Notes under the pieces: generated by a model
Seen by the model: only the letters and a program-made list of their open reading frames with translations
Told to the model about the DNA's origin: nothing
Database searches by the model: none
Program-made: the position numbers and the translations under genes
In this document: piece after piece, positions 14,922-47,791 of the stretch
Layout: each line of letters begins with the position of its first letter
How positions within the stretch are numbered: the stretch's first letter is position 1
Source: Kiritimatiellia bacterium
Lineage (GTDB): Bacteria; Verrucomicrobiota; Kiritimatiellia; RFP12; UBA1067
Reading direction: 5' to 3'
Assembly: GCA_017406465.1 (NCBI GenBank)
Contig: JAFQYM010000009.1
Location: 8,221-72,220, forward strand
DNA: 64,000 nucleotides

Positions 14922-17381
14922 TCAAGGAATTCCGTCGAAGTGGGTTTTAAGGAATTTGACGCGGCGCTTGGCCAAATCCGTATCGTGATCCGCGAAATAA
15001 GCCGTCATATGGGGGCTCGAGAGGATCGCTTCGAGAATACCGCTCGCATCCGCCCGCCCAGCGAGATAGTGGGCGACGAAGGCGATGAAAAGCGCCCTTT
15101 CAGACTCGTCGAAAAACGCCCCGCCGACGATGTCGTCGACAACGTTCGTCTGTCGCGCATGGGTGCGCCCGGTGCGAAGATAGCTCGCGGACGCAATATC
15201 CAGATGCCAGGGGAACGGGAAGTCAAAATCGTGATTAGAGGCGATGAGGATGTGCGTGAAGAATGCGAAGAGGTCTGCTTTCCTCTCCCAGAGCGCGGCG
15301 TGCGCCACGGCAGTATGCACCATGAGGCGCGCGAACACGGCAATCATGACAAGAATCCGCGACTCGCCGGAAAGCTGGTTGTCTATCGTGCATGGGGGCT
15401 CAGATTTGAGCTTCGCCTTGAGTTCGTCCAGGTTGTCCGGCCAGAGTTCACGCTCTACGAGCTCCGCCTTTTCGGCCTCAAGTCGGGCAATCAATCCGCT
15501 GCGCATCTCTGGCGCACACGTCCAGGTGAGATTGGCGGCGAAGGCATGCTTGACATAGCGATTGGCGTCCATGTCGTGCAGGATTTCAAGCGCCTTGGCC
15601 ATAGACATGATCCAGCGTCCGAGGCAGATATCATCTCTCGTAAAGTAGAGATCCCAGAGCACGTCTGCCTTGTCGCAGACTTCCTTGAAATCAATGCCCT
15701 TGTACGAAATCGAGCTTACGGACGGGAATGGGGTTCGCTTCGGCGCCGCAAGAGCACCGTTCTTCTTCCGCCAGTTCTGCAGCCATTCTTCGCGTTCCAC
15801 CTGAAGTCCAGAGTTCCTTTCTTCAGCGCATTTTGCTGAAAGGCCTGCAAGATATCGCACTATCCAGTCGCGGAACTGCGGCGTCTCTTCGCCGGAGAAA
15901 GGCATCCGTTCCGGCAAGACGCGCACAGCACAGCGTTCCTCGTTCAAGAATGAAACTCGAGACATCGAGGCCTTTTTGTTCCCCGTAAGCACCTTGTCCA
16001 TCACCGCGTACTGGAGTGACGCAGCCCCCTCCAGCATAAGGGTCATCAGCGCATCGCGCACACCTGTCTTGCCGACCGATCCGGGCAGATCGGAGATGTT
16101 GCCCCTGTCGAGCACGCCACGCACGAACTGCACAGTCGAGCTCGCGTCATTGAAGGCTTCGCGGCGCTGCTGTTCCGTGTACTTTGCAACGACACAGTCG
16201 CGGTTGACATCACAAGCATAGACAAGTTCACGGAAAATCGGCATAACCGCCTCCCAAAATGCAGAAGCGTTGGCGAAGCCGCTCTTGTCAAGGTAGAAGC
16301 GGCTTTCAACAGGGCGTTCGCAGACGCCGATCTCCTTTAGCAACTTCTCCTCCTCGACTTGTGCGAATTCATCAGGGCGCGAAACGACCCAGTCGTAAAT
16401 CACATTTGCCGCCTTGAGTATCTTCTTGTGCGTCCCCAGCTTGCGAAGCTTGTTCTTGATCCGCACCATGCACTGGGCCACGGACTCCAGCATAACGCGC
16501 GTCGCGGCGGCATTTGTCGAATGTGCATCCGACTCCTTGAGTATAACGTCAGAGAGAACCGCCATCGCGACCCACTGGCGCTCGAAGCGCATATGCGTCC
16601 CAGTCACGTTCGGATCCATCGCGAATTCGTGTTCACGGGCGAATGAGAGCTGCGTAAAGCGGTCGTAGTGGTAGTACTTCAGGAGCGGATTGCGCTTTCG
16701 ATAGTCGTTATGGACATTGGAGAACCCCGAGAGCGGGAGCGTGACGTCGTCGCGTTCCTCGACGTACAGCCCAAGCTCGCCTGCGGCTACCGCTCGGGCG
16801 GCAAGCGCTAGCGCGGCAATTCGGCGGAGAGCGCCCTGTTCATCAGACTTGAGCGCCTCGTAGATGCGCAACTGGAGAAAGCGGTTCATTTCCCAGTCCA
16901 TTGCCCCCCAGACGCCACCCCCAGCGCGTTCGTAGAGGAACCTCTCGAACGCTAGCCGCAGCCCATGACCACGGCTGCGGATGTCTCTCGACGACACATT
17001 CCTCTTCGCCGCAAACCAGAAATCTGGCAGAAACGCAAGTGGTTCGAAAGTGCGCGCGAACGTCGTGAATCCGTTGGGGTTCTTCCTTATCTCGCCGTCG
17101 TTCGACTTCTTCGCCCGACTCAGAATGTAGATGTCGCGAAAGACTTCATACCACCGCATCAACGCGGTTGGCCGCCCGACCGACCTCCCGCCTTTGCCCA
17201 CACATGCAATATATTCTTCATGCGCAACCTCATTGAGCACCTCCACCTCCTGCGCGAGCGCCAATCGGCCACGAGAGGACTCAAACTTCTGGAAGAACGC
17301 CGCGACCTCGTCAGGGATGCTGTCGACAATCTCCTGGAAGCGAAGATGCGGTCTGCTACGCGATTTCAAAGTTTTTCCCAT
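14922..17381 (-). CDS. Hypothetical 819-aa protein, last gene of the giant minus-strand operon
   Basis: Long clean ORF, 24 nt after the upstream gene. No recognisable motif. Confidence 0.6.
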   Translation of the reverse strand: MGKTLKSRSRPHLRFQEIVDSIPDEVAAFFQKFESSRGRLALAQEVEVLNEVAHEEYIACVGKGGRSVGRPTALMRWYEVFRDIYILSRAKKSNDGEIRKNPNGFTTFARTFEPLAFLPDFWFAAKRNVSSRDIRSRGHGLRLAFERFLYERAGGGVWGAMDWEMNRFLQLRIYEALKSDEQGALRRIAALALAARAVAAGELGLYVEERDDVTLPLSGFSNVHNDYRKRNPLLKYYHYDRFTQLSFAREHEFAMDPNVTGTHMRFERQWVAMAVLSDVILKESDAHSTNAAATRVMLESVAQCMVRIKNKLRKLGTHKKILKAANVIYDWVVSRPDEFAQVEEEKLLKEIGVCERPVESRFYLDKSGFANASAFWEAVMPIFRELVYACDVNRDCVVAKYTEQQRREAFNDASSTVQFVRGVLDRGNISDLPGSVGKTGVRDALMTLMLEGAASLQYAVMDKVLTGNKKASMSRVSFLNEERCAVRVLPERMPFSGEETPQFRDWIVRYLAGLSAKCAEERNSGLQVEREEWLQNWRKKNGALAAPKRTPFPSVSSISYKGIDFKEVCDKADVLWDLYFTRDDICLGRWIMSMAKALEILHDMDANRYVKHAFAANLTWTCAPEMRSGLIARLEAEKAELVERELWPDNLDELKAKLKSEPPCTIDNQLSGESRILVMIAVFARLMVHTAVAHAALWERKADLFAFFTHILIASNHDFDFPFPWHLDIASASYLRTGRTHARQTNVVDDIVGGAFFDESERALFIAFVAHYLAGRADASGILEAILSSPHMTAYFADHDTDLAKRRVKFLKTHFDGIP

Positions 17382-17405
17382 GACTCTCGCATTTACGTAG
17401 AATAT

Positions 17406-19928
17406 CTATGTCAAGAACAGCGGGAACAAGTCACGTGCTTTCAGGAGCAAATCGTCCAATGCCTTGCCGTTCATATCCTTTGCTCCATGATCGACAAGCC
17501 AATCGATGAAATCGCGCCAATGCACCTTCAGGGCATCATAGGCTTCTTTGGACTCGTCTTTGGCAAGCCCCTTGGCGGCAACATAGCGATCCTTGACGAT
17601 CTGCGGCAGCTTCGCAGACATTCCGGCGATGCTTTTGTATGAATTCTCCGCCTGGATGTTCCACGTAAGCTCGATTTCGCCTTCGGCCCATGATTTATGA
17701 ACGATCTGCTTCGTGTGCTGGATGTAGTTTGTTCCGCCCTCATCGATGAACTTGCACTTGATCTCCTCGCCATTCGCCGTCGCGCGGTCGACAAGCACCT
17801 TCTGCGCCGCATCGATATTCCGTCTTGTCGCCCCGTCGTCCCAATCTCCGGGGACAAGGAGGCGCAGGTCGATGTCGAACCCACCTTTCAGCACGGCATC
17901 GTAGCCAAGCGACCCGCCGACGAAATACTCCGCTCCCGCGATGCCGCAGTCCTTCACGAGCCGTTCGCCCTCCTCCCGTGCAAGCGCCAGCAGCGCCGGC
18001 GTCTTCGGGTTGCGGAACTTCACCGCCATCCCCGCCGGATCGGCAACCGCATACTTCTTGTAGAATTCTTCAGGTGTCATAGTTATCTTATATGCTATTT
18101 GTTCTAGGAATGTCGGAGCCTCGGCAATCTGCGCCCTGTCTTTCTCCTGCGCTTCATCGTTGAAACGGTTGTTATAGTTCGCCAACTCGGGACGTATCGG
18201 ATTTGAATTGCAGTTCATCTTCACCTCGGCGATCCAACGGCGATGCGTAGCCTTTGCAAGAATCTCGCCGACAGCGCTCCCGATTGGCACGCCAAGCCCC
18301 ATTCCGCATCCATCGGCGACATCTACAAATTCCAACCCAACTGAATGGAAAAGCTCTTTGAATGAATCGACCCTCTGTTTGAATTTCTCTTTGCGGTAAA
18401 TCGACGTATATTCATTGTTGCCGACATCCCACTCCTCGCGATTCTTGAAAATTGCCCTTGCAAGCCTTTCCCTGCGCCAGGCATTGTATGCGGCGCCATT
18501 CTTAAAGCCGAAATAATACACGCTGTCGCATTCCGGCAAATCAAGGAAGTCTTCGTTGGGGCGGTTCACGCCGAATGTCTCGATATCCTGCCTGACATAT
18601 ATCCTGAAATCCGCCTTGCTCCCGTCAAGGAGGTCAAGGAGGTCTTTCATTATCTCCAATGCGGCCGTCGCATCCGTAATCGAGATCACGACGCTTGTCT
18701 GTGCGTCATCCGATACCAGGGCCTTTATTTTGTCCAAGAAGGCGGAACTGTAATATCCTTCTTTCACATCCTCGATTGACAGCTCGAGATGTGTGGTGGG
18801 CGCCTTAATCTCCGGATACTCGCGCAAGAACGCACGGCTTGGGGCCTCCGTGTTTTCTCCAATGACGCGGATTTCCGTTTTCACTTCGTCGCCGTAGTGG
18901 GCGACCCTGGCCGCTTCGACAGCCAATGCCTGCCCCATCTGCGAGAAGCCGACAATCACGACACGCACTGTTTTCTTGCAGTCATGATGCATAAACCGCA
19001 ATGCAGGATATGCCGCGCGGTCTTTTGTCGGCAACATCGCCCACAGCCGCTTGCTCCAATTGTCATAGAAGTTGAAGTAGTCAAGCAGCAACGGATAACT
19101 GTTGCTCGCCTTGCGGCTTCGCTTGAGACGACTGAATAAAAGGAAGGATGCAATCTTCACATGGGCAACAATCTGAGAATTCGGATCCGTGCATTTGCCT
19201 CCGAGCCGCTTGTTGAGCCTCGCCACGAGGTTCAACATGCGGGCATCATGCCCAGACTCCTCCGACTCGCCTACCAGATATATCTCTCGCGCCGCATCAA
19301 GGGAATAATTGGCAATGATGTCGTCCACATCATCGTAATGACCGCGGCAGACGGAAACATAGAGCTTTTCGTCCTTGCCGCAGGCCCTTATTAGCTTTCG
19401 GATTTCCGGCACGTCCTGCACGGTCACGACGGCCACTCGGCGCTCCAAGCCAAGCCGCCCCATGAATTTGTCGTACTCGCTGATTTCCTTTATCAACGTG
19501 GGGACATTGTCATCCCATCCCAGTATGATCGTATGCCCGCCCTCGCTTCGAAAGTCGTGATGTATCAGCCCGTTCCTTCTCCGTCTGCTGTAGTCCAGGC
19601 ATCGCGTCACAAGCGCCGAAAACAGCGCGCCGCTGCCGAGAAACCACGTAAAGGCAAACAGCAACGCACTCGCAAAAGCCGACACTCCGCCAGTCGCAAT
19701 CACCGTGTTTATGTCAAACAAGCTGGTGAATATCCATTTGAACACCCCCTGTTGACCATTTCTGCCAAAGGCAAACCCTAAAATGACCGCCAATATGGCA
19801 ATGCCCGCCAAGACCCACCAGAGATATTTGACAGGATTCCTCTCACCAGCCACCAAGAATCCAAGGAACCTACGGAGATTCCTTATCCTGGGCATTTCCT
19901 TAATAAAATCATTTAATTTGAAACGCAT
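17406..19928 (-). CDS. Membrane protein with a 2-TM pore-like N-terminus, two RCK (TrkA_N-like) Rossmann domains and a C-terminal Pol-beta-type nucleotidyltransferase domain
   Basis: TM1 LWWVLAGIAILAVILGFAF. Re-entrant and filter-like segment FTSLFDINTVIATGGVS. TM2 AFASALLFAFTWFLGSGALFSALV. RCK1 HTIILGWDDNVPTLIKEI. RCK2 RVVIVGFSQMGQALAVE. NTase hG[GS]x11DhDh: VGGSLGYDAVLKGGFDIDL. Confidence 0.6.
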   Translation of the reverse strand: MRFKLNDFIKEMPRIRNLRRFLGFLVAGERNPVKYLWWVLAGIAILAVILGFAFGRNGQQGVFKWIFTSLFDINTVIATGGVSAFASALLFAFTWFLGSGALFSALVTRCLDYSRRRRNGLIHHDFRSEGGHTIILGWDDNVPTLIKEISEYDKFMGRLGLERRVAVVTVQDVPEIRKLIRACGKDEKLYVSVCRGHYDDVDDIIANYSLDAAREIYLVGESEESGHDARMLNLVARLNKRLGGKCTDPNSQIVAHVKIASFLLFSRLKRSRKASNSYPLLLDYFNFYDNWSKRLWAMLPTKDRAAYPALRFMHHDCKKTVRVVIVGFSQMGQALAVEAARVAHYGDEVKTEIRVIGENTEAPSRAFLREYPEIKAPTTHLELSIEDVKEGYYSSAFLDKIKALVSDDAQTSVVISITDATAALEIMKDLLDLLDGSKADFRIYVRQDIETFGVNRPNEDFLDLPECDSVYYFGFKNGAAYNAWRRERLARAIFKNREEWDVGNNEYTSIYRKEKFKQRVDSFKELFHSVGLEFVDVADGCGMGLGVPIGSAVGEILAKATHRRWIAEVKMNCNSNPIRPELANYNNRFNDEAQEKDRAQIAEAPTFLEQIAYKITMTPEEFYKKYAVADPAGMAVKFRNPKTPALLALAREEGERLVKDCGIAGAEYFVGGSLGYDAVLKGGFDIDLRLLVPGDWDDGATRRNIDAAQKVLVDRATANGEEIKCKFIDEGGTNYIQHTKQIVHKSWAEGEIELTWNIQAENSYKSIAGMSAKLPQIVKDRYVAAKGLAKDESKEAYDALKVHWRDFIDWLVDHGAKDMNGKALDDLLLKARDLFPLFLT

Positions 19929-19958
19929 AACGACCCCTATCGCACATGCACTATCTTC

Positions 19959-21986
19959 TTAGGTTTCTTTATATGTGAGTATCATTTGTGCAACGTACTG
20001 CGAAATGTTGCCATTTGACGCAACATGCTTTAGCGTGTAAAGAAGATTTGCCCAATCCTCGCAGAATGCATTCGCCTCCTGCCGCGTCTTGGCAAGGAGC
20101 AAAAATGGCGTCGCCGTTTTGTCATTATCACAGGCAAACAGCTTAAGGTCTTTCCACTCATCGCTATTGTTGCAGTACTTCTTGATACTATAGCTGAATG
20201 ACGTCACTTCCACATCCGAATGCCTCTTGCGCAGCCAATCAAACTGCGCGGACAGCACATTGCTTGTAAATGGATCGTCTTGCGTGAAGAAATCTTCCCC
20301 ACCCTTCAAAAACACATAGAACAAATTCAATCCTGGCGAAAGCCTGCAATCTTTGCGCATAGGGCTGGAATTGCCTGTAAATTGCGCATAATCTTGAATG
20401 AAAGCCGCAACGACGGCATTCGAGTTAAGCCCCTTCAATTCTCGTGCCCAATCGTTCCCATTTCCATCTTCACTCAATGACAGTTCCTTGTTCTCCAACT
20501 CGCGCCGCTTGTCATAGAACTTGAGAAATGCCAGTTCCTCCGCCCTCGCAAGCAGGGCAGATTCGTTCGTCCCCGGCGCGGGGCCACGCGAACTCCCCCT
20601 CTTGTCGGCAAAGATGGCATTGCGCAATGCCGAATTTTTCGCGCTCCATATCTTTATGATCCGCAAGAGCGCGATTCCAATGACAAGCGCAAAAGCCATG
20701 ACAATCGATAGTATGCTTACAAAACTAGTCTGGCCGAAAGCACTATTCAACTTGGCACTTTTGGCGGCGAGATATGGCACCAGCGTACAGCCGACAATCA
20801 CGACAAACATCGGCTCAAATCCCCCGCATACGACAAGCCAGTCTCCACCGGAGAGGCCAAATTTCTCCATGTGCTTCTTCTTCATCACTGCATCATGTAG
20901 CGAAACGCCAGCCAATTGACAAACTGGCGCGACAATGGTGCCTAACACAACGACAATCCAAACCAGCCAAAAACCGTTCGACAAGAAAAACGCCCTGAAT
21001 CCCTCGGCCTTCCCAAGCCAACCATCCATATACAAAACCCATAGATCGTCAAACTCTAGAACCTTCCCTGTCGCAGTGCCCACATGCCCAGCAAGCCAAT
21101 GAGAGCCAGACCAAAACAGATATGCCAAGGCCGCAGCCCCTGAGCACATAATCAAATTCATGACAAGAGCAGCAGTAAGCGCGGCCCGGAATTGCCTTCC
21201 TGCCATGATTTTATCATCCTCGGCCGACACAAGCAGATTGCCGTTTATCTTTGCAAAAGTGTACACGGCACAAATGAAGGCGACTAATGCAGCCCAAACG
21301 GTTATTCCGCCAAGATGCTCCCAAACCCCAACTGGACAACGGGCAGACAAATTCAATATGCCACTTGCAAACACCATGAGGAGCGAGCAAATCCAGACGA
21401 GCGCTTCCACTAACGAGAAATCCTTCGGAGATTTCTTCGGAAAAAGAATAATCAAAAGCAACCCCATATAATAGCCATAGCTGCGAAGCGCTTTTGCCGC
21501 TGTTTCGGATATCACGCTATTGTCAACGGCATCTTGCGCGTAATGCAAGATGAACTTCATCTCAAAGAATCTGGCAAAAAAATATCCAGTCGGCAAAGCA
21601 ATCAACCACCACTTATATTTCCAAATCTTGCGACACGTCACCTTTAGCATTATCCAAATCCATTTCGCATCCCCCTTCATCGCACCCCAAAGGAAAAGCA
21701 CTAACAGCCAAACACCCAGCAACCCAAGTGACACTATAGACGCTAGCAGCGTTCGCATGAAGACCGTGAATATCCGTTCGGCATCAATGATGGGATTGCT
21801 GTTCAGAACATCATACCCCAATGGGAGAAGCCCCCACAGAAGCGGCGCGACAATCGCGAGACAGAGCCATCCCAACCGGCTGAATGCCGCATGCCCCAGC
21901 ACCTTGATCAAGGCGCACAGATCAACTAAACCACCCCACACGTTGACACTTGGCGGCAGACGCAGCAAAGACATTTTCTTACTCAT
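19959..21986 (-). CDS. Polytopic membrane protein with a cytoplasmic C-terminal domain, hypothetical
   Basis: More than 10 hydrophobic helices. Start chosen at the Met whose ATG overlaps the phosphatase stop (ATGAGTAAG); the track start at 22022 is also possible. Confidence 0.55.
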   Translation of the reverse strand: MSKKMSLLRLPPSVNVWGGLVDLCALIKVLGHAAFSRLGWLCLAIVAPLLWGLLPLGYDVLNSNPIIDAERIFTVFMRTLLASIVSLGLLGVWLLVLFLWGAMKGDAKWIWIMLKVTCRKIWKYKWWLIALPTGYFFARFFEMKFILHYAQDAVDNSVISETAAKALRSYGYYMGLLLIILFPKKSPKDFSLVEALVWICSLLMVFASGILNLSARCPVGVWEHLGGITVWAALVAFICAVYTFAKINGNLLVSAEDDKIMAGRQFRAALTAALVMNLIMCSGAAALAYLFWSGSHWLAGHVGTATGKVLEFDDLWVLYMDGWLGKAEGFRAFFLSNGFWLVWIVVVLGTIVAPVCQLAGVSLHDAVMKKKHMEKFGLSGGDWLVVCGGFEPMFVVIVGCTLVPYLAAKSAKLNSAFGQTSFVSILSIVMAFALVIGIALLRIIKIWSAKNSALRNAIFADKRGSSRGPAPGTNESALLARAEELAFLKFYDKRRELENKELSLSEDGNGNDWARELKGLNSNAVVAAFIQDYAQFTGNSSPMRKDCRLSPGLNLFYVFLKGGEDFFTQDDPFTSNVLSAQFDWLRKRHSDVEVTSFSYSIKKYCNNSDEWKDLKLFACDNDKTATPFLLLAKTRQEANAFCEDWANLLYTLKHVASNGNISQYVAQMILTYKET

Positions 21987-25600: not shown

Positions 25601-26225
25601 GATACACTCGGTTGCTATGTTTTTTACTTTCCGCAGCCAATTTATCAGACAACTCCTTAACTTCAGCTTCACTACTTGGTAATTTCTTCAATCTCCATTT
25701 CGCCCCCGTCTCAACATCCGTCACATTGAAGATTTCCTTACGCATTGAACTAATTGCTTGAACATCCCATTTGACGTAATCATTATTAGCTTGTTTCCAC
25801 CTAGCGAAAACTTCTTGAAAAGCATTGTCCATATCAGAGACGCCGCCAGCATCACCCCCATCTCCCCAGTGGCAAAAAACATGGACAACATTGTCATGCG
25901 TGGGCTCGCCAACGACAACTTCCGTGATATTCTTTTCGATATAATCTTTGACAAAGGTTGTCAGACAATTATCAGCAACTCTTCCAGTGCGAATTACATC
26001 TTTTAGCTCATCAACGTCAGTACTCCTCTTAAGAATGATACAAACACTATCAATATCATCACTCCATTCCACCTTAATAGAAGCAGTGTCCCCTATGCTG
26101 TCTATGAGATCATCAGCACCATCATCACTACTATCAGAATCAAAACCCGATGACGCATCATATGGCATGCCATCATAAGCGTCAAACTCATCTTGATCTT
26201 TGGCAATAAAAACGGCGATTGTCAT
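22638..26225 (-). CDS. 1195-aa multidomain protein: acidic N-terminus, response-regulator receiver (REC) domain, RIO/Kdo-like atypical protein-kinase domain
   Basis: REC: LLIDDD acidic pocket, phospho-acceptor DFVLLDLRL, PVVIYS, FIRKE. Kinase: Gly-rich PMGGGMSSAVTFKAW, VIVKID Lys, catalytic IIHGDMNYANIML, WLIDFARTR DFG-like. Low GC. Confidence 0.65.
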   Translation of the reverse strand: MTIAVFIAKDQDEFDAYDGMPYDASSGFDSDSSDDGADDLIDSIGDTASIKVEWSDDIDSVCIILKRSTDVDELKDVIRTGRVADNCLTTFVKDYIEKNITEVVVGEPTHDNVVHVFCHWGDGGDAGGVSDMDNAFQEVFARWKQANNDYVKWDVQAISSMRKEIFNVTDVETGAKWRLKKLPSSEAEVKELSDKLAAESKKHSNRVYQYSYDAQDFASLTNDGQVATIVPLLIIPVTAASTVGKLAEVIKEACRGLGYGPLEIDKLSGVEKFYPLFVDFEYAMGNGKRVRVIDGAGFSIPNEFVLRFEKGKANKTDGALTVDLVRDMLLRMKAWRSDEKLKEGLSAEDIKDWMAGAFRRFCMLDEDVHGTDGTIDVKNLKDDPGGVWKKYKEQLRRRYESKSLFKRLREVVFESEMASLSSLFVKGNNLNDEDCGKKFSEEVIYEPGGSQVAYFSPVIRFSGLLIDDDAENAKKDIEARTKPVMAIEPISVRADIPGDNTVVRQAISQFRQISDSHKSYDFVLLDLRLADHPGHDPSGYQLIKYIKQFFPQIPVVIYSRYDDMGHISRAFAAGADWFIRKEDVEKLPRHMISLLSFQKWGKEWDSLGRLGLCDRDMFSIETGRSASFCSEHEQERMYLTYKVLEKLPGKRIHIKPMGGGMSSAVTFKAWKTIEGHEKPLQSPVIVKIDSAFNTMTEFERYFRFIRPYIANECGRIETKNKVVDKDNSAIVYSFAGKNDPSHNLSTMKEKLSNDIKFFARCDYEKYASVFDSIFDDILPKIHGISFDLEIEKAMSSFPNHILGEKVLSKNGFVGNYLSRMPIAKYYDVECFVSQEEACVRRAPKIKAFEFHGLCKDDVGRHAIEAYEIQNKQGVNDYSKITVVLKGVVAEHVAKYRHPMPGQTLYAIVKNSEVEPKLDGAILKSIKERLYPDSKSIVVFYNGDEQNRTSDDNKFKYSSDNRDPDNRCKQCIITLIENLLKGGRNGVVNISGYGKLVLDEKGRIDKLVQADTTGERFNCQQGIIHGDMNYANIMLDEKNGNPEKDVWLIDFARTRRDYIAHDFNVMFSATISLLFDNDLWNDEGVGGSARYAARLVRIFRKYICDAMFSVNEDEPDYIANDRRFTLVYKILRRIRRAALKDKQMTPDMYTLTTALCCLYTFKIYLKHDHNIQAAACFLAIAHICIERLESGGDNPS

Positions 26226-29200
26226 TTGTGTTCTCCTATTGGTAAAATGTTCATAATCGTATCGACCAGCACCATTTTCTCTGGGTATTTCTTAAAGAGC
26301 GCAGTCTCCACTACGGAAAATGGCAGTATCCGCGCTGAATCTGGAATGTTCGCAGGAGTGCCACGACCTGTCGTAATCACAACATACGGGACGAACTCTT
26401 TAAGCCTCTTGATAAAAGACTCAACCTTGCCACAATCCGTCCCCACGTGCGGCAACCACTTATCTATCAATCCTTGGTGGATAATCAAGATATCAAAACG
26501 CCAGTCGCGCAATGGGAGCTCCTCACAATTGGTCGCCGAAGACCCATTGACTATCGCATATCTCAGGAAGGCGTCGAATCTCCCTTTGTCTAATGTTATG
26601 AGCGAATCCAACCCAATCTTCTCTTCGCCAAACTTGGTCTCGTCAACGCACCAAATACCCATGCGACAAAATGTCTTGATCTCATCGGACCGATTTCGCA
26701 AAAACTTTGAAACCCGTTCGTCAACTATTAAAATACGCGAGAGCCCCGTCTCATACATCTTAGCAATAAGATGGTAATTGGTTAGTCGTTGATAGACGGA
26801 TTCATTCTGTCCAAGCATCATCATATCATTAAGATATGATTGTGTTCCGCTCAAAGGCTCCAAATACAACATTTTGTCTTGATTAAAATCATCGGATGTT
26901 GCATGCCGCATAAACGCAATGGATTTCCCTTCATTCCATTCCGCGTCTTTTTCATTATATACCAAAGATATTCCCAGTTCTTGCACAATCTTATTATCTA
27001 CACCATCTACGCCCTCCCCGCCGCTATTCCCTTTTATTTCATCATTCAAATCTTCTCCAAAACAACAAGGAAGCGTTATGATTCTCTCTTCATACTTCCG
27101 CAACATGACATCAGATTCTCTGTATGCCGAGCATAGATCCTTAACAAACATAGGCATCCCATTTGATTTATTCACTGCATTGCCTTGATACAAAGGATTG
27201 CCCTGCCTTATCTTAAAATCTGATGCATTGTTTCCAAGTGCTTCTGAAACTTTCGCGTGGTATTTCAATGCAATTGCGTAAACTGCTTCCAATCCCTTTT
27301 TATTGTCAACTGCCGCCATTCTTCTCAATTTGTATTTTTCAGCAAAGGCCGCGAACCCTTGTAAAAGACCATCCGGCGTGTCTCTTAAAATGCCCTGCAA
27401 CACAGAAAACCATCCATCCAATACCTTAAAAATCAATTCCCGTTCTGAATAATCAGCATCAGCTTTGACATCATTAATTTTTTTCCGTAATATCTCATTT
27501 TCACCAACAAAACCAAACACATTCCCATTTATATCAAGCGTTTTCGGCATAGCAACTATCAACGCCAAATACCAATAAACCTCATCTGCAATTATATTTG
27601 GGCGAAGCTCTCCATCTTTCAGTAAATTACCCACAATAGAACGGAACATTTCCTTAAAAACGAAATTCCACACATCCAGATTGCTCACCAACCCCTGCCC
27701 AGGATTCCCCGACGAACCTACTTCCGTCGTCAACACTCTCAACGCAGGCAAGCCAGAATCAAATCTCCTTCTCGTCTCACTCCAATAAGTTATCCACGCT
27801 TTAATCGCCTTGACTTTCAATTTCTTTGCGACAGCCTCTGCCGAAATCGTCCCATTCTGCAAGTCTTTCAACACATCATCATAAAATCCAGACGCATTCG
27901 GAACCATATCAACTTTGCCACTATTATCATTTGCCAAGACGCGGAATGGCAAATGAGGGTCTGCCTGTGAAGGGAACTTCGGCAAAACAACGAACGAATA
28001 GTTCCAATCCTCTTCGCTGTCATTCTTTGGCTTAACAAATCGACCGTCTTTTGGTGGTGGCACAACGAACACGCCTAATGTCCGCAGCTCTTTAATTATG
28101 TCCACATTGACACCAGTCGTATCACAGACAAAGGCAATATCTCTTGGACGAGGAATCGTGAAATGATACCCAAGATGATCTTCATTAGCACGTATTGGTG
28201 TTATTATAGGAATCCCTTTCGACATCCCTCCTATATCGGAGATAGAGCGCTTATTAAGATAACCAGCCGATATCTTCATCTCAGCAAGCCCCCAGTTCTC
28301 TCGCCGCAAAGACCCTGTCTCATCTATAAATGGCTTCTCTATCCTAATCTGCTGACAATGGTGCAATGGCATCCAAAGGCGATTGCCTAAACGTCCATCG
28401 CCAGGCACATCACCAATAAGTCGTCCCGCAATCCGCTTCAATTCATTTTCATTATATTTTAACAGACATGCATATTGCTCTTGATAAAAGACTGGCAACT
28501 GAGCCACAGAGCATTTCCCCGATAAAAACTCTGCAATGCATTCTTGCTCCGACGGTAGTAAAGAAGTCTGCAAGGCTTCTTTATACGTCTCATACCATCT
28601 TTTAAGCGACTCATCAGTTGTATGTGAAGTCCAAAGTCGTTTGCCTATGCCGCCATCGCTTGACGCCTCGCCCACAAGCCAACGCTCAATCTTCTCAATG
28701 GCATCCTTGTCCCGATTCTTTAGCAATAAATACTGTTTCTTGTAACATTCAGGCAAGGAGTCCACCGCCCCCTTCCCAGAGAGAAACTTTGAAATCTGCA
28801 TCCTTTCATCTCGCGTCAATCTCTGCAGGACATCTCTACACTCCTCGAACCACTTCAAAAGATCTTTATCAACCATCCAATAGTCATCGAACGTCGCAAA
28901 CACATTTGATATACCATCATAAACATCAACCAAAACCGCCCTTCCGTCATCGTCTGCGGCGAAATCGACATAAACATCCAGATTTGTCTTTTCTCCTTTA
29001 AACTTTGACCAACCATGCTTTGCTGCGTTTCGAATTACATTCTCAAGAATAGTAAAGAATGCATGAGAGCCGACAATGCCACCCGGCAATGCAACTGCTA
29101 AATCGCTTGAAAATTTATCATTGTCTCTCACACTCTTTTTAGCATTCGCGACATTGGATGCATTTTCAACAATAGGATCATCGCTATAGGTAATAAATTC

Positions 29201-31258
29201 AACAGACTTGCGTCCATCATTGAATCGCCTTGAGACATGCAGCTTTATAGTGTTTTCTTGGCTCCACCTAGCAGGACCTGAGACATTAGGGTCTTGGAAC
29301 TTAAATGCGTGAAGGCCTTCGCTACTTGCTATATATTCCAAGAGATGTCGTTGAGAAAGAAAGCGACGTGTCAAATCATTTACTAGTTTTGCGCTGCCAG
29401 CCCATGTAGGGAAATCTGTTGTTGCCGTCGCAGTATAATCCATTCTGTGCTGTATGTACTGATACAAAACTCTGTCATCCGGCATCGTCCCTATATTATG
29501 AGACAACGCCGCCAATACATGACTACCAATATTATGGGAACCATTGCGAGACATTATTGAGCCAATGGCAGACTTTGTATTTGCTATCTTAAGCTTATTC
29601 GTCGCTATTGCATTTCGAACTCCATCAAATACCCGATTAACTGAATTCGACACTAGTTGCAATGCTATTAAATCCAATTTCCTTTTACAACTAAAGACAA
29701 TGCAGCCCTTATCCAACGCATTAGAAGTCTCTGGAACAAGATACACCCATCTATCGTCCCCCTTTAAATAATCTTTTGTCCAATTAGTCAACGCCTCTCC
29801 TCGCTTACGCATTTTGGAAATCGCTTCTCTACTACTATTTTTAAACTTAATAGCAGCATCTTCCTGCGACCATGCCGCTACTACTGGAAATCTTTTCTCG
29901 ATTGATTGGCAATATGGTACCGCGAACTTCCTGAGATTGGAGTCGTCTGAGCACTTAAGAAATAACCTATACGAATCATTGTCACATAAATCATATTCTC
30001 GCAAATTCACTTGAATAGGCTTATCCTCTAACGCACTTAGTAGCCCCTTCTGAAATATATCGACTTCAGCAGACGTGTCAGAAAAAAGAGCCTTCTCTCC
30101 CGAAAATATCATTACATGATTAAGATCAAAGTACTGACCTAAAAGTGAATGCCTCAAAACTTCCCAAACGAAAGAACGAAGAGAACAATCTGAAATATCA
30201 ACAACTTGGATCTTCGCGCATTTATCAACAAGTGCTTCAGTATCTTTCATGAAATTAACTTGCGCAATTGGCGTTAAACGGCAAACTAGATTATCAACTC
30301 CCGCCCTCCAATTCTCATCTATGGCCGGATAGCCAAATTCATTAACGATTTTACCTACTAGACACGGTGCTAGCGACCCACCTTTTCGCAAAACTATTGA
30401 ATCCTTTTCTCCCAACAAATAAACGCCTTTGTGCAACGGCTCTTCACAAAAGACACCCGCAGAAAAACAATCAGCAATCCTATCTCTCGAAAACTTAACA
30501 AATACTTGAAATAAATTCTTCGAGTCAATATCATTGACAAGAGACAAATAGCGAACACTTTTAAATTCAGGTGGGAAATGAACCTCATTATTACCCATGT
30601 CTGTACAAAGAATTGGCAATGCAATATCAGTAAACACAACTGCCGAATTGCTTACCGCGTATTTTAATATATATTCGTAATTGTCACCGTATCCTGTTAC
30701 ATATACAAAATCTCCTTTGCTAAGTATACTTTTTATAGATGTGTTTACCGAGGTGTCCTGATATGCGCAGGGCTTATATTTATACGCAATATGCGGTATC
30801 AATTCCCTGGACAAGGTTTCAAAATGCAACTTAAAAGCATTCTGCATATCTACCTGAGACGAACTGTAAAATATCCTCACAGTAATTTCATTCTCATCAT
30901 TATTACCACTCGTATACATCCTATGTATTTCGCCAATCATTCTTCGTGCAACTAAATACGTTTGATCCGTTGCCGATATCCACCAGCGATAATACTTTAT
31001 CCCAGCGGAAAGAATGATGTCCTCGTTTGTCTGAACAGTCCCCGTGCAGAAAAGAGGGATTCTCTGCGCTTTTGCAATCTTCAAGAGTGCTTCACTCGGC
31101 GTGCCAATTGAAAGAATGCCAGACCAAGATTCACCTAAGATATCACTGCGCAGTGAAGCATCAACGAAACTCTCCCCCTTGTATTTGCCAATTATTACTT
31201 TAGATGAATTATCCAACTCATCATCAGCCATTCCCCTGTAAACCAAAATCTTATTCAT
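26222..31258 (-). CDS. 1678-aa giant protein: PBP1-like N-terminal region, doubled SHNIG His motif, GHKL/HATPase_c-like N-box, internal duplicated roughly 60-aa module, receiver-like C-terminus
   Basis: N-terminus IGTPSEALLKIAKAQRIPLF…GDFVYVTGYGDNYEYILKYA is periplasmic-binding-protein-type-I-like. RNGSHNIGSHVLAALSHNIG at residues 572-590. ENVIRNAAKHG…VDVYDGISNV at residues 738-786. Repeats FLSGKGAVDSLPECYKKQY…GIGKRLW and FLSGKCSVAQLPVFYQEQY…RLGNRLW. C-terminus ILIVDER…FDILIIHQG. ATGA-coupled to the next gene. Confidence 0.6.
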   Translation of the reverse strand: MNKILVYRGMADDELDNSSKVIIGKYKGESFVDASLRSDILGESWSGILSIGTPSEALLKIAKAQRIPLFCTGTVQTNEDIILSAGIKYYRWWISATDQTYLVARRMIGEIHRMYTSGNNDENEITVRIFYSSSQVDMQNAFKLHFETLSRELIPHIAYKYKPCAYQDTSVNTSIKSILSKGDFVYVTGYGDNYEYILKYAVSNSAVVFTDIALPILCTDMGNNEVHFPPEFKSVRYLSLVNDIDSKNLFQVFVKFSRDRIADCFSAGVFCEEPLHKGVYLLGEKDSIVLRKGGSLAPCLVGKIVNEFGYPAIDENWRAGVDNLVCRLTPIAQVNFMKDTEALVDKCAKIQVVDISDCSLRSFVWEVLRHSLLGQYFDLNHVMIFSGEKALFSDTSAEVDIFQKGLLSALEDKPIQVNLREYDLCDNDSYRLFLKCSDDSNLRKFAVPYCQSIEKRFPVVAAWSQEDAAIKFKNSSREAISKMRKRGEALTNWTKDYLKGDDRWVYLVPETSNALDKGCIVFSCKRKLDLIALQLVSNSVNRVFDGVRNAIATNKLKIANTKSAIGSIMSRNGSHNIGSHVLAALSHNIGTMPDDRVLYQYIQHRMDYTATATTDFPTWAGSAKLVNDLTRRFLSQRHLLEYIASSEGLHAFKFQDPNVSGPARWSQENTIKLHVSRRFNDGRKSVEFITYSDDPIVENASNVANAKKSVRDNDKFSSDLAVALPGGIVGSHAFFTILENVIRNAAKHGWSKFKGEKTNLDVYVDFAADDDGRAVLVDVYDGISNVFATFDDYWMVDKDLLKWFEECRDVLQRLTRDERMQISKFLSGKGAVDSLPECYKKQYLLLKNRDKDAIEKIERWLVGEASSDGGIGKRLWTSHTTDESLKRWYETYKEALQTSLLPSEQECIAEFLSGKCSVAQLPVFYQEQYACLLKYNENELKRIAGRLIGDVPGDGRLGNRLWMPLHHCQQIRIEKPFIDETGSLRRENWGLAEMKISAGYLNKRSISDIGGMSKGIPIITPIRANEDHLGYHFTIPRPRDIAFVCDTTGVNVDIIKELRTLGVFVVPPPKDGRFVKPKNDSEEDWNYSFVVLPKFPSQADPHLPFRVLANDNSGKVDMVPNASGFYDDVLKDLQNGTISAEAVAKKLKVKAIKAWITYWSETRRRFDSGLPALRVLTTEVGSSGNPGQGLVSNLDVWNFVFKEMFRSIVGNLLKDGELRPNIIADEVYWYLALIVAMPKTLDINGNVFGFVGENEILRKKINDVKADADYSERELIFKVLDGWFSVLQGILRDTPDGLLQGFAAFAEKYKLRRMAAVDNKKGLEAVYAIALKYHAKVSEALGNNASDFKIRQGNPLYQGNAVNKSNGMPMFVKDLCSAYRESDVMLRKYEERIITLPCCFGEDLNDEIKGNSGGEGVDGVDNKIVQELGISLVYNEKDAEWNEGKSIAFMRHATSDDFNQDKMLYLEPLSGTQSYLNDMMMLGQNESVYQRLTNYHLIAKMYETGLSRILIVDERVSKFLRNRSDEIKTFCRMGIWCVDETKFGEEKIGLDSLITLDKGRFDAFLRYAIVNGSSATNCEELPLRDWRFDILIIHQGLIDKWLPHVGTDCGKVESFIKRLKEFVPYVVITTGRGTPANIPDSARILPFSVVETALFKKYPEKMVLVDTIMNILPIGEHK

Positions 31259-31278
31259 AGTAAATCATCCACGCTTAC

Positions 31279-32430
31279 TTATTTGATATTTTGGCCAATT
31301 TCTTCATCCAAAACAACTTCTTGTCCATTAGAATCAAATCCAACAACTATTAATGGAAAGAAAATCTCTCCCTGAGAATCATATGAAATTTCACCCACGA
31401 TAGAATGATATTTGCTTATACGCCGAAATCCTTCTATCAATTTATCACTAGATTTGGCATTTTTATACGCCTCATTATACAACATCAGTGCTTCATATGC
31501 AAAAGCGCCAACAATTGTAGGTTCTCTCCCATAAGCACGGGAATATTCATTTACAAACGCTATCCGCTCCGGAGTATTTATTTTCACGCCAAATTCTGTA
31601 TCAAGAAAGATGATATTAGATAAATCTTTTACATGAGAACGCTGATCAGAAGCAACCAATGATATTTCTGTCAAGATCTTACCACTAAACCGACACTCCT
31701 TTAAATAGTTCAAAGAAGATATATAAGCTGGACCAAAACCTGTTATAAAAATGGCATCAGGCTTTGAATCTACCAATTTCATAATTTGAGCCTTGACATC
31801 AACATCACTAATATCAAAGCGTTCTATGGGATACACAACACCATCTTTCCCATATTGAGATTTAAATATTGAAATCGCATCATCTCCACTTTGATCATTG
31901 ATTGCGAAGACTGCAATTCTATTAATTTTCAATATGTCATGTGCATATTTAGCCATAACTTTTGCCTGAAGAGCTACAGGAATCCACGCACGAAAAACCA
32001 AATCACTTAATTTCGTTACATCAGACGCACCAGTACCAAAGGCAACCAACGGCATATGCTCCTCATTCAACCGTGGAATAAACTGCGATACAGGCGTATT
32101 CCCGAAAGCCAGAACCCCCTTTAGCCGCTTCATTTGCAAAAGGCGAGCAAATGCCAACACAGTATCTTTGGAGGTGTATCTTCCATCCTCTACAATCAGC
32201 TCAAACGGTTGTTCATTACCAAACCGTCCTTCTAATTTCTGCTCTGCTATCTTTATGGAATTAAATATTTCCTGCCCCATTACAGAAACAGAACCCGTCA
32301 ATGGCAGGATCGCTCCAATCCGAATTACATCATCTGGTGCGGACTTATTCGTTGCCTTGTACGCCAGTAACGACACAATGCCAATCAGCACGACTGCGCC
32401 AATCGCAATCAGCAACTTATTTTTCTTCAT
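31279..32430 (-). CDS. Periplasmic binding protein, type I (LivK/LivJ-like ligand-binding protein), N-terminally anchored
   Basis: Signal/anchor MKKNKLLIAIGAVVLIGIVSLLAY. PBP1 core RIGAILPLTGSVSVMGQE…GVLAFGNTPV…IAVFAINDQSGDD. RBS AAAGGAAAAC. Very AT-rich. Confidence 0.75.
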   Translation of the reverse strand: MKKNKLLIAIGAVVLIGIVSLLAYKATNKSAPDDVIRIGAILPLTGSVSVMGQEIFNSIKIAEQKLEGRFGNEQPFELIVEDGRYTSKDTVLAFARLLQMKRLKGVLAFGNTPVSQFIPRLNEEHMPLVAFGTGASDVTKLSDLVFRAWIPVALQAKVMAKYAHDILKINRIAVFAINDQSGDDAISIFKSQYGKDGVVYPIERFDISDVDVKAQIMKLVDSKPDAIFITGFGPAYISSLNYLKECRFSGKILTEISLVASDQRSHVKDLSNIIFLDTEFGVKINTPERIAFVNEYSRAYGREPTIVGAFAYEALMLYNEAYKNAKSSDKLIEGFRRISKYHSIVGEISYDSQGEIFFPLIVVGFDSNGQEVVLDEEIGQNIK

Positions 32431-32452
32431 TTTTTGTTTTCCTTTCTTGTGT

Positions 32453-32719
32453 TCAAATGATTCCCAGCGCCTTTGCGCGCCACTCGCGGGCTTTGGACAG
32501 ATCCTGCGGGACGCCGCAACCAGATTCATAGCAGGATGCAAGCTGTCGCATGCAGTTCGCGTTTCCCAATTGCGCACCACGCATGAAGCACTCAATGGCC
32601 TTCTGCACGTCGACGACATTCTCGTTGGCGTCATCAAACAGGTATCGCATACCCGCCGCCCATTCGGCATCTCCATCGGTTTTGGGCGTGAAGTTCTTAA
32701 CCCAGTTCGTATCACCCAT
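32453..32719 (-). CDS. Sel1-repeat protein (88 aa)
   Basis: Two Sel1-like repeats: AAGMRYLFDDANENVVDVQKAIECFMRGAQLGN and MRQLASCYESGCGVPQDLSKAREWRAKA. RBS GGGAGG. Confidence 0.6.
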   Translation of the reverse strand: MGDTNWVKNFTPKTDGDAEWAAGMRYLFDDANENVVDVQKAIECFMRGAQLGNANCMRQLASCYESGCGVPQDLSKAREWRAKALGII

Positions 32720-32844
32720 TGGAGGCCTCCCTCTTTTTGGAGGTCAGACAGGCCTTAAGTCCACGGCACTCAGCCATGAACTCACCCAGCACGCTTGATA
32801 TGAAGATTCGGTATTTCATCACAAGGCATTATATCCTTTTCCCC

Positions 32845-47750: not shown

Positions 47751-47791
47751 TTACTGTTTGCTCCTTTATTTTTTCAAGTATCACTAAGGTG

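What the first reader, a model, noticed from the sequence alone, without database searches (positions are those of the whole stretch)
14922..32719. 17.8 kb co-directional operon of giant uncharacterised sensor/kinase/channel proteins: candidate undescribed signalling or defence system
Eight minus-strand genes run with minimal spacing and several ATGA start/stop overlaps (26222/26225, 22638/22641, 21979/21986).

- Sel1-repeat protein.
- Anchored PBP1/LivK-like binding protein.
- 1678-aa protein: PBP1-like N-terminus, doubled SHNIG His motif, GHKL-like N-box, duplicated module, receiver-like end.
- 1195-aa REC plus RIO/Kdo-like kinase.
- PGAM His phosphatase.
- 687-aa polytopic membrane protein.
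- 840-aa channel/2xRCK/nucleotidyltransferase fusion.
- 819-aa orphan.

The set pairs extracytoplasmic and cytoplasmic ligand sensors with His-ATPase-like, receiver, Ser/Thr-kinase-like and phosphatase modules. It ends in a channel-type membrane effector carrying a nucleotide-transferase domain.

That is the logic of a multi-layer phosphosignalling cascade that gates membrane permeability, as in abortive-infection or nucleotide-second-messenger defence. I do not recognise the combination as any named system.

The locus is compositionally foreign. It is flanked by a PD-(D/E)XK nuclease (32845-34227), livHMGF and a tRNA-Pro.
Basis: partly seen in the sequence, partly recalled or inferred. Interest (0 to 1): 0.85.

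Follow-up and report, generated by a model that had tools for sequence, protein, structure and literature searches.

The report
Importer-coupled giant histidine-kinase signalling operon
The eight genes are a real, conserved operon, and together with the livHMGF importer next to them they form an undescribed two-component-type signalling system built on a giant histidine kinase from a widespread unannotated family; nothing tested shows it is an anti-phage defence system.

Summary

- **The 1678-aa protein.** It has a cytoplasmic LivJ/K-like binding domain, then a divergent histidine-kinase DHp+CA core, then a receiver-like end with His where the phospho-Asp should be.
- **Its family.** The ~975-residue core has no Pfam or NCBIfam model, yet it matches 2930 representative clusters.
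- **Its partners.** In 23 of 24 related loci with enough upstream DNA, livHMGF-type ABC genes plus a binding protein precede it. The liv genes are therefore part of the system, not flank.
- **The Kiritimatiellae branch.** It adds a receiver fused to an APH-like TCAD9 kinase, a His_Phos_1 phosphatase and a polytopic membrane protein. It also adds a 2-TM/RCK (CASTOR-like) protein fused to a nucleotidyltransferase-like module.
- **Other phyla.** They carry NtrC-type regulators instead.
- **Variation.** The binding protein, kinase core and REC-kinase are hypervariable and recombining (98% DNA identity to one relative, ending sharply inside the kinase gene). Sel1, phosphatase and NTase module are conserved.

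No defence model matches the eight proteins and no viral contig carries the family.

Verdict: a new variant of two-component signalling; ligand, output and biological role are unknown.

The parts
34241..37494 (-). livH (36610-37494), livM (35744-36613), livG (34951-35763) and livF (34241-34954): a branched-chain-amino-acid-type ABC importer. It is proposed to be an integral part of the system.
   Evidence: BLASTP to the liv genes of related loci. ABC genes plus a binding protein precede the giant-kinase gene in 23 of 24 scanned loci with at least 6 kb of upstream DNA, including distant phyla where the liv proteins are only 30-50% identical.
32845..34227 (-). YhcG/DUF1016 PD-(D/E)XK nuclease with a C-terminal DUF4357. 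It is a variable insert between livF and the Sel1 gene, not a constant member.
   Evidence: Pfam YhcG_C 8.4e-51, DUF1016_N and DUF4357; PADLOC candidate PDC-S02 1e-120. Other loci carry a different gene at this site, or none.
32453..32719 (-). 88-aa Sel1-like repeat protein, highly conserved.
   Evidence: Pfam Sel1 E 7.9e-7, 29.9 bits against a cut-off of 30.7. It is 85-92% identical in L001, L005, L007, L008 and L009.
31279..32430 (-). Membrane-anchored LivK-like type-1 solute-binding protein (383 aa).
   Evidence: Pfam Peripla_BP_6 1.5e-27. N-terminal hydrophobic segment at residues 1-19. 99% identical to L005, 92% to L001, and 23-30% or undetectable to other relatives.
26222..31258 (-). Giant cytoplasmic sensor histidine kinase (1678 aa).
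   Evidence: No Pfam or NCBIfam hit. Family of 2930 clusters. AF2 model of residues 540-1678: pLDDT 74.5, pTM 0.70.
30269..31258 (-). Giant residues ~1-330: cytoplasmic LivJ/K-like binding-protein sensor domain (boundaries approximate).
   Evidence: A profile of 13 N-terminal regions matches PDB 4gnr, a branched-chain amino acid ABC substrate-binding protein: E 1.2e-4, profile positions 25-321 against chain residues 27-341. The AF2 model was poor (pLDDT 50), so this rests on sequence only.
29399..29641 (-). Giant residues 540-620: DHp/H-box with invariant H575, H580 and H587 (RNGSHNIGSHVLAALSHN). A recombination breakpoint lies at about 29402.
   Evidence: Invariant in 31 diverse family members. 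Foldseek alignments cover DHp+CA of WalK, HK853 and CpxA. 98.4% DNA identity to L005 ends at 29402.
28139..29161 (-). Giant residues ~700-1040: GHKL catalytic (CA) domain. It has the N-box ENxxRNAAKH and the G2-like ENWGLAEMKISAG. A helical insert lies between them.
28367..28873 (-). Giant residues 796-964: tandem duplicated helical module. It lies within a ~180-aa stretch (about residues 770-975) absent from P0002 and P0003.
   Evidence: Self-BLAST gives 36% identity, E 7e-17. Alignment A1 shows the stretch is missing in P0002/P0003.
26225..26746 (-). Giant residues ~1505-1678: receiver-like (beta-alpha)5 domain. It carries invariant IIDER, IIHQG (H1594 at the phospho-Asp position), TTGRG and LPF.
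22638..26225 (-). 1195-aa protein with four parts: X domain (residues 1-245, 25491-26225), middle domain, receiver (about residues 455-590, 24456-24863) and APH-like TCAD9 kinase (residues 600-1195, 22641-24428).
   Evidence: Pfam Response_reg 35.1 bits (cut-off 30.2) and TCAD9 78.4 bits (cut-off 40). Motifs LLIDDD464, FVLLD526, VVIYS, FIRK, HGDMN1024 and IDFA1048. The X domain is a separate ORF in L001, L005, L014 and L020, and follows the giant in L023 and L015.
21979..22641 (-). His_Phos_1 (PGAM-type) histidine phosphatase, 220 aa.
   Evidence: Pfam 1.8e-29. RHGES10 and SHGT159 are present. 72-80% identical in relatives.
19959..21986 (-). Polytopic membrane protein: about 8-9 TM segments within residues 33-441, plus a 235-aa soluble C-terminal domain.
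   Evidence: Hydropathy. Homologues in L005, L007 (there fused to the 2-TM/RCK part) and L014. No Pfam hit.
18081..19928 (-). 840-aa protein, residues 1-616: two TM helices, a CASTOR/DMI1-like RCK domain (NHxxILGW) and a second Rossmann-like domain (VGFxxMG).
   Evidence: A profile of 9 homologues matches RCK1 of DMI1 (7vm8, E 6.4e-4) and CASTOR (6o6j, E 2.7e-3). Hydropathy. No conserved selectivity-filter motif.
17406..18080 (-). 840-aa protein, residues 617-840: nucleotidyltransferase-like module. It is a separate ~220-aa gene in most relatives.
   Evidence: Motif GG(S/A)LGYDAxLxGxxDIDLRLL plus FIDEGG is invariant in 6 sequences. Weak profile match to the catalytic motif of the class I CCA-adding enzyme 1r89, E 0.047. 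No Pfam hit.
14922..17381 (-). 819-aa protein of unknown fold; part of the variable tail.
   Evidence: No hit in Pfam, NCBIfam, PADLOC or PHROGs. Only one homologue among the fetched loci: L007, 76%.

Best explanation
This is an ABC-importer-coupled, two-component-type phosphorelay.

1. A Liv-type ABC importer (livHMGF) works with a membrane-anchored LivK-like binding protein to take up, or at least bind, a small solute.
2. The 1678-aa cytoplasmic protein senses that solute, or the transport state, through its own N-terminal LivJ/K-like binding domain.
3. It then autophosphorylates on one of three invariant histidines in a divergent DHp/CA kinase core.
4. It passes the phosphoryl group to Asp526 of the receiver in the next gene product.
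5. In this Kiritimatiellae branch that receiver controls a fused APH-like (TCAD9) kinase. The kinase phosphorylates an unknown small molecule or protein.
6. The adjacent His_Phos_1 phosphatase reverses a phosphorylation step.
7. The output acts on membrane proteins: a polytopic protein, and a 2-TM protein with a CASTOR-like RCK ring fused to a nucleotidyltransferase-like module. The system therefore probably changes ion or solute flux.
8. Sister branches in other phyla wire the same sensor to NtrC-type sigma-54 regulators instead.

**Shown here:** gene order and its conservation, the domain identities, intact catalytic motifs, and the mosaic variation.

**Inferred:** every phosphotransfer step, the ligand, the kinase substrate, the phosphatase target and the membrane output.
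For: - **Binding-protein-like N-terminus.** The profile matches PDB 4gnr at E 1.2e-4 over nearly the whole chain.
- **Coupling to the importer.** 44 of 50 loci have a binding protein upstream. 23 of 24 have ABC genes plus a binding protein, across Kiritimatiellae, Lentisphaeria, Ignavibacteriales, Caldithrix, Bacteroidales, Marinifilaceae and others.
- **Receiver partners.** They are the REC-TCAD9 kinase in the Kiritimatiellae-type loci (8 of the 36 scanned loci with enough downstream DNA, plus L001-L011) and NtrC-type REC-sigma54 proteins in the other type.
- **Intact catalytic residues.** The receiver, kinase and phosphatase all keep them.
- **Translational coupling.** ATGA overlaps link giant to kinase and kinase to phosphatase.
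- **Membrane end.** RCK profile hit at E 6e-4, NTase motif, TM predictions. The sister locus L001 ends in an Ion_trans channel gene.
Against: - No Pfam HisKA or HATPase_c hit reaches threshold. Only 1 of 31 members gives a weak hit, E 0.0023.
- The H-box region has pLDDT below 50 in the model, and the phospho-accepting His is not identified.
- The giant's own C-terminal receiver-like domain lacks the Asp, so its role is unknown.
- About 450 residues between the CA domain and that end match nothing.
- The binding-domain assignment for the N-terminus rests on one profile hit, and the AF2 model failed.
- Co-variation of binding protein with sensor domain (rho 0.38) and of kinase core with REC-kinase (rho 0.27) is only modest.
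- A pore was not demonstrated.
- The extreme divergence of sensor and kinase is atypical of housekeeping two-component systems: median 7-37% identity, between genomes in which the window's liv proteins are 72-91% identical to those of K-type relatives.
Confidence: 0.6

Rival explanations
1. It is an anti-phage or abortive-infection defence system. The phosphorelay detects infection and the RCK/NTase membrane protein collapses the membrane potential or makes a nucleotide signal.
For: - The binding protein, giant and kinase are hypervariable and mosaic, with a recent recombination tract (98.4% DNA identity ending inside the giant gene).
- GC is low over 22-33 kb.
- Occurrence is rare and patchy: 19 loci in 185,579 species genomes.
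- TCAD9 was first described in vWA-MoxR-VMAP conflict systems (PMC7159879) and is listed next to CRISPR-linked genes.
- The operon tail is variable: 819 aa here; DUF4062 plus Ion_trans in L001; a 1190-aa adenosine-deaminase protein in L022.
- Defence-candidate genes (YhcG/PDC-S02) sit at the operon's upstream edge.
Against: - PADLOC has no hit for any of the eight proteins.
- No relatives lie on viral contigs.
- A dedicated nutrient-type ABC importer and binding protein are the constant partners across phyla. I know of no defence system with that feature.
- Sister branches output through NtrC/sigma-54 transcription factors.
- The locus keeps the same chromosomal position (tRNA-Pro-liv ... FtsH-like) in several Kiritimatiellae genomes.
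- The YhcG gene is replaceable and often absent.
Confidence: 0.15
2. It is a cell-cell communication or kin-discrimination ('pherotype') system. A secreted small molecule is re-imported by the ABC system, sensed, and perhaps phosphorylated by the APH-like kinase. This would resemble AI-2 uptake by Lsr followed by LsrK. Signal-receptor specificity would diversify by cassette exchange, as at comQXP loci.
For: - A recombination breakpoint lies inside the kinase gene, between the sensor and catalytic parts. The binding protein and sensor domain move together in window, L005 and L001.
- The sensor is extremely diverse while Sel1, phosphatase and NTase stay conserved.
- APH-family kinases commonly act on small molecules (statement in PMC7159879).
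- The comparisons with Lsr and comQXP rest on my own knowledge, not on a test.
Against: - No signal-synthesis gene was identified in the operon.
- The catalytic half of the giant and the REC-kinase are also hypervariable, unlike comP/comA.
- Co-variation of sensor and binding protein is only rho 0.38.
Confidence: 0.15
3. It is a chance juxtaposition of unrelated housekeeping genes with no functional link.
For: The liv genes, phosphatase and Sel1 protein look ordinary on their own.
Against: Gene order is kept in dozens of contigs despite 23-50% protein identity. Start/stop overlaps couple the genes. Alternative gene fusions link the components: X domain + REC-kinase, polytopic TM + RCK in L007, and RCK + NTase here.
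Confidence: 0.02

Closest known systems
Transporter- or binding-protein-coupled two-component systems (BceS-BceAB, PhoR-PstSCAB, LuxQ-LuxP, TorS-TorT; review PMC8050422)
   Different: - The kinase here is soluble (no TM segment) and carries its own cytoplasmic LivJ/K-like domain.
- Its ~975-residue core has about 640 residues beyond DHp-CA with no known counterpart.
- No Pfam HisKA or HATPase_c model recognises it.
AmiC of Pseudomonas aeruginosa, a cytoplasmic LivJ-like binding protein used as a sensor (from my own knowledge, not tested here)
   Same: A type-1 periplasmic-binding-protein fold is used inside the cell as a ligand sensor for a regulator.
   Different: AmiC is a free-standing protein that controls the antiterminator AmiR. 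Here the domain is fused to a histidine kinase and paired with a dedicated importer.
vWA-MoxR-VMAP 'ternary' conflict systems (Kaur et al., eLife 2020, PMC7159879), the source of the TCAD9 domain model
   Same: The kinase domain of the 1195-aa protein matches Pfam TCAD9 (78.4 bits). That paper describes it as an active APH-like kinase seen rarely as an effector.
   Different: No vWA, MoxR or VMAP component is in or near the operon. Only the kinase domain is shared.
RCK-gated cation channels CASTOR / POLLUX / DMI1 (PDB 6o6j, 7vm8) and MthK
   Same: A membrane segment is followed by an RCK domain with the NHxxILGW motif, then a second Rossmann-like domain.
   Different: There are only two predicted TM helices and no conserved selectivity-filter motif. 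The C-terminal fusion to an NTase-like module is not a feature of those channels.
Defensive two-component-like systems such as Detocs, and kinase/phosphatase defence systems such as Pgl/BREX type 2 (from my own knowledge)
   Same: The logic is similar: a kinase-type sensor feeds a receiver-coupled effector, or a kinase is paired with a phosphatase.
   Different: No PADLOC model matches any of the eight proteins. Those systems have no ABC importer or binding protein.

Membership tests
Sensor histidine kinase (two-component system) | GHKL catalytic (CA) domain with N-box and G-boxes | tested here: met
Sensor histidine kinase (two-component system) | DHp helical hairpin bearing a conserved phospho-accepting His | tested here: inconclusive
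   Foldseek alignments of about 265 columns span DHp+CA, and three His are invariant. However, this segment has pLDDT below 50, and which His is used is unknown.
Sensor histidine kinase (two-component system) | Recognition by the curated HisKA / HATPase_c profiles | tested here: not met
   No Pfam or NCBIfam hit for the window protein even at E 10 on segments. 1 of 31 relatives gives HATPase_c at E 0.0023.
Sensor histidine kinase (two-component system) | ATP-dependent autophosphorylation and transfer to a receiver Asp | not testable with these tools
   Needs biochemistry.
Response-regulator receiver (in the 1195-aa protein) | Response_reg profile above threshold, with the acidic pair, phospho-Asp, Ser/Thr and Lys | tested here: met
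   35.1 bits against a cut-off of 30.2. LLIDDD464, FVLLD526, VVIYS555 and FIRK578 are present.
APH-like / TCAD9 protein-kinase-like fold | TCAD9 profile above threshold, with the catalytic HGDxxxxN loop and DFx metal-binding motif | tested here: met
   78.4 bits against a cut-off of 40, with weaker APH, EcKL, Kdo and RIO1 hits. HGDMN1024 and IDFA1048 are present.
vWA-MoxR-VMAP ternary conflict system | Core triad of MoxR AAA+ ATPase, vWA protein and VMAP (PMC7159879) | tested here: not met
   None of the three is among the Pfam hits of the operon or of 11 related loci.
Type-1 periplasmic binding protein (LivJ/K-like) | Peripla_BP_6 profile match (the 383-aa protein) | tested here: met
   97.7 bits against a cut-off of 31.7.
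Type-1 periplasmic binding protein (LivJ/K-like) | The same fold in the N-terminus of the giant protein | tested here: inconclusive
   The profile of 13 N-termini matches 4gnr at E 1.2e-4 over about 300 residues. But Pfam gives nothing, and the AF2 model has pLDDT 50.
Histidine phosphatase superfamily, branch 1 | His_Phos_1 profile, with the RHG catalytic His and the second His | tested here: met
   103.3 bits. RHGES10 and SHGT159 are present.
RCK-gated ion channel | RCK (KTN/TrkA-type) domain after the membrane segment | tested here: met
   The profile of 9 homologues matches RCK1 of DMI1 and CASTOR, E 6.4e-4 to 2.9e-3. This is weak but motif-specific.
RCK-gated ion channel | Pore helix and selectivity filter between two TM helices | tested here: not met
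   Two TM helices are predicted, but no conserved filter-like motif appears in the alignment.
Pol-beta-fold nucleotidyltransferase | G[GS]-x9-13-D-x-D catalytic motif plus a third acidic residue | tested here: inconclusive
   The motif is present and invariant. The only profile hit is to the CCA-adding enzyme motif at E 0.047. No Pfam hit.
Known or candidate anti-phage defence systems (PADLOC-DB 2.0) | A match of any component to a defence-system model | tested here: not met
   No hit for the eight proteins. Only the neighbouring YhcG matches candidate PDC-S02.

The most novel reading that the evidence does not exclude
The locus is a new kind of conflict system. A dedicated importer brings in a phage- or competitor-derived small molecule. 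A giant hypervariable kinase recognises it. A receiver-controlled small-molecule kinase, together with an RCK/nucleotidyltransferase membrane effector, then shuts the cell down. The constant cassette exchange at the locus would be the trace of an arms race.
Probability: 0.15. Interest if true: 0.85.

Novelty: new variant of a known kind. Interest (0 to 1): 0.6.

Why it matters
- The giant protein defines a large sensor-kinase family: 2930 clusters at 50% identity, 791 of them at E below 1e-30. Pfam and NCBIfam do not recognise it.
- The family has a fixed partnership with a dedicated Liv-type importer and a cytoplasmic copy of the binding-protein fold. If the inferred mechanism holds, this is a clear natural case of 'import, then sense inside'.
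- The specificity parts are exchanged by recombination between strains in the rumen.
- The receiver-APH kinase fusion and the RCK-nucleotidyltransferase fusion are output modules with no studied example known to me.
- The family is at present seen only in uncultured MAGs and metagenomes.

Tried and rejected
- **Pfam, NCBIfam and PADLOC on whole proteins, and Pfam on ten segments at E 10.** Nothing for the giant, the 840-aa, 819-aa or 687-aa proteins.
- **PHROGs.** Nothing informative.
- **Word-indexed homologue search.** It found only 3 giants, and repeating it with a 31-sequence profile returned the same 3, so that search was wasted.
- **Single-sequence PDB search of the 840-aa protein.** Nothing.
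- **PDB profile search of the X domain.** Nothing.
- **afdb50 fold library.** Unavailable.
- **Promoter and terminator scan.** Not above chance: 18 terminator-like sites against 19.1 expected.
- **hhalign between the downstream families of the three neighbourhood types.** Only a weak REC-level link, fam10 to NtrC at 54%. I could not show that the ~750-aa family of Lentisphaeria corresponds to the REC-kinase or the RCK protein.
- **Co-variation of modules.** I expected strong co-variation between binding protein and sensor, and between kinase core and REC-kinase. The rank correlations are only 0.38 and 0.27, so I dropped that as a main argument.
- **Weak cREC_REC hit in L025.** E 8e-4; not pursued.


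Full report
**1. Observation**

The ORF coordinates give ATGA overlaps between the giant gene and the REC-kinase gene (26222-26225), and between the REC-kinase and the phosphatase (22638-22641). An 8-nt overlap joins the phosphatase and the membrane protein (21979-21986). The remaining gaps are 20-30 nt.

GC drops to 0.375-0.45 only across about 22-33 kb. The distal third of the operon is close to the flanks. The source is a Kiritimatiellae MAG: the giant protein is identical to NCBI 'IJG18_01870'.

**2. Domain content**

Profile searches confirm these assignments:
- Peripla_BP_6 in the 383-aa protein.
- Response_reg plus TCAD9 in the 1195-aa protein. TCAD9 is an APH-like kinase, with weaker APH, Kdo and RIO hits.
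- His_Phos_1 in the 220-aa protein.
- A borderline Sel1 repeat in the 88-aa protein.

Catalytic residues are intact in the receiver (D526), the kinase (HGDMN, IDFA) and the phosphatase (RHG, SHG). The 687-aa protein has about 8-9 predicted TM segments. The 840-aa protein has two.

For the 840-aa protein, a profile built from nine homologues matches the first RCK domain of the DMI1 and CASTOR channels (E 6e-4 to 3e-3). Its last 224 residues are a separate gene in most relatives. They carry an invariant GG(S/A)L-x-DIDLR nucleotidyltransferase motif, with a weak match to the CCA-adding enzyme motif. A pore was not shown.

The 819-aa protein matches nothing. Among the fetched loci it occurs only in L007.

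**3. The giant protein**

It has no Pfam or NCBIfam match, even in segments. An exhaustive HMMER search with its C-terminal 975-position profile found 2930 representative clusters, 791 of them below 1e-30. The best 150 almost all match end to end, at the C-terminus of 1000-1900-aa proteins with different N-termini.

- three histidines in RNGSHNIGSHVLAALSHN;
- the N-box ENxxRNAAKH;
- the G2-like ENWGLAEMKISAG.

The window's copy has a tandem duplicated helical insert between these boxes.

The last ~170 residues have a receiver-like (beta-alpha)5 topology. An invariant His sits where a receiver has its Asp. About 450 residues in between match nothing known.

A profile of 13 N-terminal regions matches a solved branched-chain amino-acid binding protein over its whole length (4gnr, E 1.2e-4). 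AF2 could not confirm it.

**4. Neighbourhood**

Eleven contigs from rumen metagenomes carry the same order: Sel1, binding protein, giant, REC-TCAD9 kinase, phosphatase, membrane/RCK genes, NTase module. They lie between livHMGF and an FtsH-like gene. The phosphatase gene is missing from L009-L011.

Scans of one genome per species and of JGI metagenomes for the family's invariant peptides gave 62 more loci. I mapped components onto them with HMMs:
- 44 of 50 loci with room upstream have a binding-protein gene before the giant.
- 23 of 24 loci with at least 6 kb upstream have Liv-type ABC genes as well.

This holds in Ignavibacteriales, Caldithrix, Marinifilaceae, Bacteroidales, Lentisphaeria and Kiritimatiellae. 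In those loci the liv proteins are only 30-50% identical to the window's. The importer therefore belongs to the system.

Downstream genes fall into three types:
- the REC-TCAD9 kinase set (Kiritimatiellae);
- a ~750-aa family (mostly Lentisphaeria);
- NtrC-type REC-sigma54 regulators with further unknown proteins (Bacteroidota-group phyla).

The first 240 residues of the window's REC-kinase are a free-standing gene directly after the giant in other loci, including distant ones. This 'X' domain is thus a general partner. Fusions tie the components together: X + kinase, polytopic TM + RCK in L007, and RCK + NTase here.

**5. Variation**

Median identities among 16 Kiritimatiellae-type loci:

| Module | Median identity |
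|---|---|
| Giant N-terminus | 7% |
| Binding protein | 22% |
| Kinase core | 37% |
| REC-kinase | 36% |
| Phosphatase | 71% |
| NTase module | 74% |
| Sel1 | 86% |

For comparison, the window's liv proteins are 72-91% identical to those of K-type relatives L007, L008 and L011.

At the DNA level the window is 98.4% identical to contig L005 over 29402-32723. It is 98.2% identical over the YhcG gene. The first tract ends abruptly just after the H-box of the giant gene. Downstream the two are unalignable except for the phosphatase. This is a recent recombination that swapped the sensor cassette.

Rank correlations between modules are modest: sensor with binding protein 0.38, kinase core with REC-kinase 0.27.

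**6. Defence?**

PADLOC matches none of the eight proteins. It matches only the neighbouring YhcG nuclease (candidate PDC-S02). That gene is a replaceable insert: other loci carry an ATPase_2/DUF234 gene, another DUF4357 protein, or nothing at that site. The family is absent from IMG/VR contigs.

TCAD9 was named from vWA-MoxR-VMAP conflict systems (PMC7159879), but none of their core components is here.

Several features keep a conflict reading alive at about 15%:
- patchy occurrence (19 loci in 185,579 species);
- hypervariability;
- low GC;
- the variable tail: Ion_trans plus DUF4062 in L001, an adenosine-deaminase protein in L022.

A pherotype-like communication role is about equally possible.

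**7. Conclusion**

The best-supported reading is an importer-coupled, two-component-type phosphorelay of a previously unannotated family, with lineage-specific outputs. In this genome the output is a receiver-controlled APH-like kinase, a phosphatase, and membrane proteins including an RCK/NTase fusion. The skeleton is shown by sequence, structure prediction and comparative genomics. The ligand, the phosphotransfer route, the kinase substrate, the membrane effect and the biological role are all inferred.

Noticed in passing
window 32845-34227 (and L005 2-1417 and 1499-2629; L007 2111-3427; L008 1724-3580; L020 5477-6664): The short stretch between livG/livF and the Sel1 gene is an insertion hot spot for single defence-type genes. 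The window has YhcG/DUF1016 + DUF4357. L005 has two YhcG copies. L007 has an ATPase_2/DUF234 gene between livG and livF. L008, L013, L014 and L018 have ~500-600-aa proteins sharing the DUF4357-like end.
   Followed up: partly
window 11379-14348 (+): A 989-aa FtsH-like protein with two AAA modules and Peptidase_M41 lies at the distal end of the operon. It is syntenic in L001, L007 and L009; L001 has such a gene on both sides. Its relation to the operon is unknown.
   Followed up: partly
window ~47000-52000 (ORFs 48136-49110, 49200-50336, 50207-51238, 51235-55653, all minus strand): A second low-GC patch (0.47-0.49) holds three co-directional ORFs without Pfam matches, next to a 1472-aa protein with bacterial TSP3 repeats.
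   Followed up: partly
L001 21969-23175: In this sister locus the operon tail is a DUF4062 protein (136 aa) and a 256-aa Ion_trans (voltage-gated-type) channel, instead of the 819-aa protein.
   Followed up: no
L022 15577-19149 and L058 15655 onward: In Ignavibacteriales-type loci the gene after the NtrC-type regulator encodes a ~1150-1190-aa protein. In L022 its C-terminal region matches adenosine deaminase (E 3.7e-24). Its N-terminal half belongs to the ~545-aa family found in the other loci of this type.
   Followed up: no
window 26225-27900 (giant residues ~1120-1678): There are strongly invariant motifs of unknown function outside the kinase module: R1451-H1452, EPLSGxQSY (1467-1475), IIDER, IIHQGxxDK and TTGRG. 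They suggest a second active site or a phosphotransfer site.
   Followed up: no
window 25491-26225 (REC-kinase residues 1-245): The 'X' domain has an invariant HWG motif (H119, G121) and nearly invariant ISS (S159, S160). It has no match in Pfam or the PDB. It is a separate gene in many relatives.
   Followed up: partly
L024 (Promethearchaeota MAG, 2.7-kb contig): One family member sits on a short contig binned to an Asgard archaeon. The contig is too short to judge context or rule out mis-binning.
   Followed up: no
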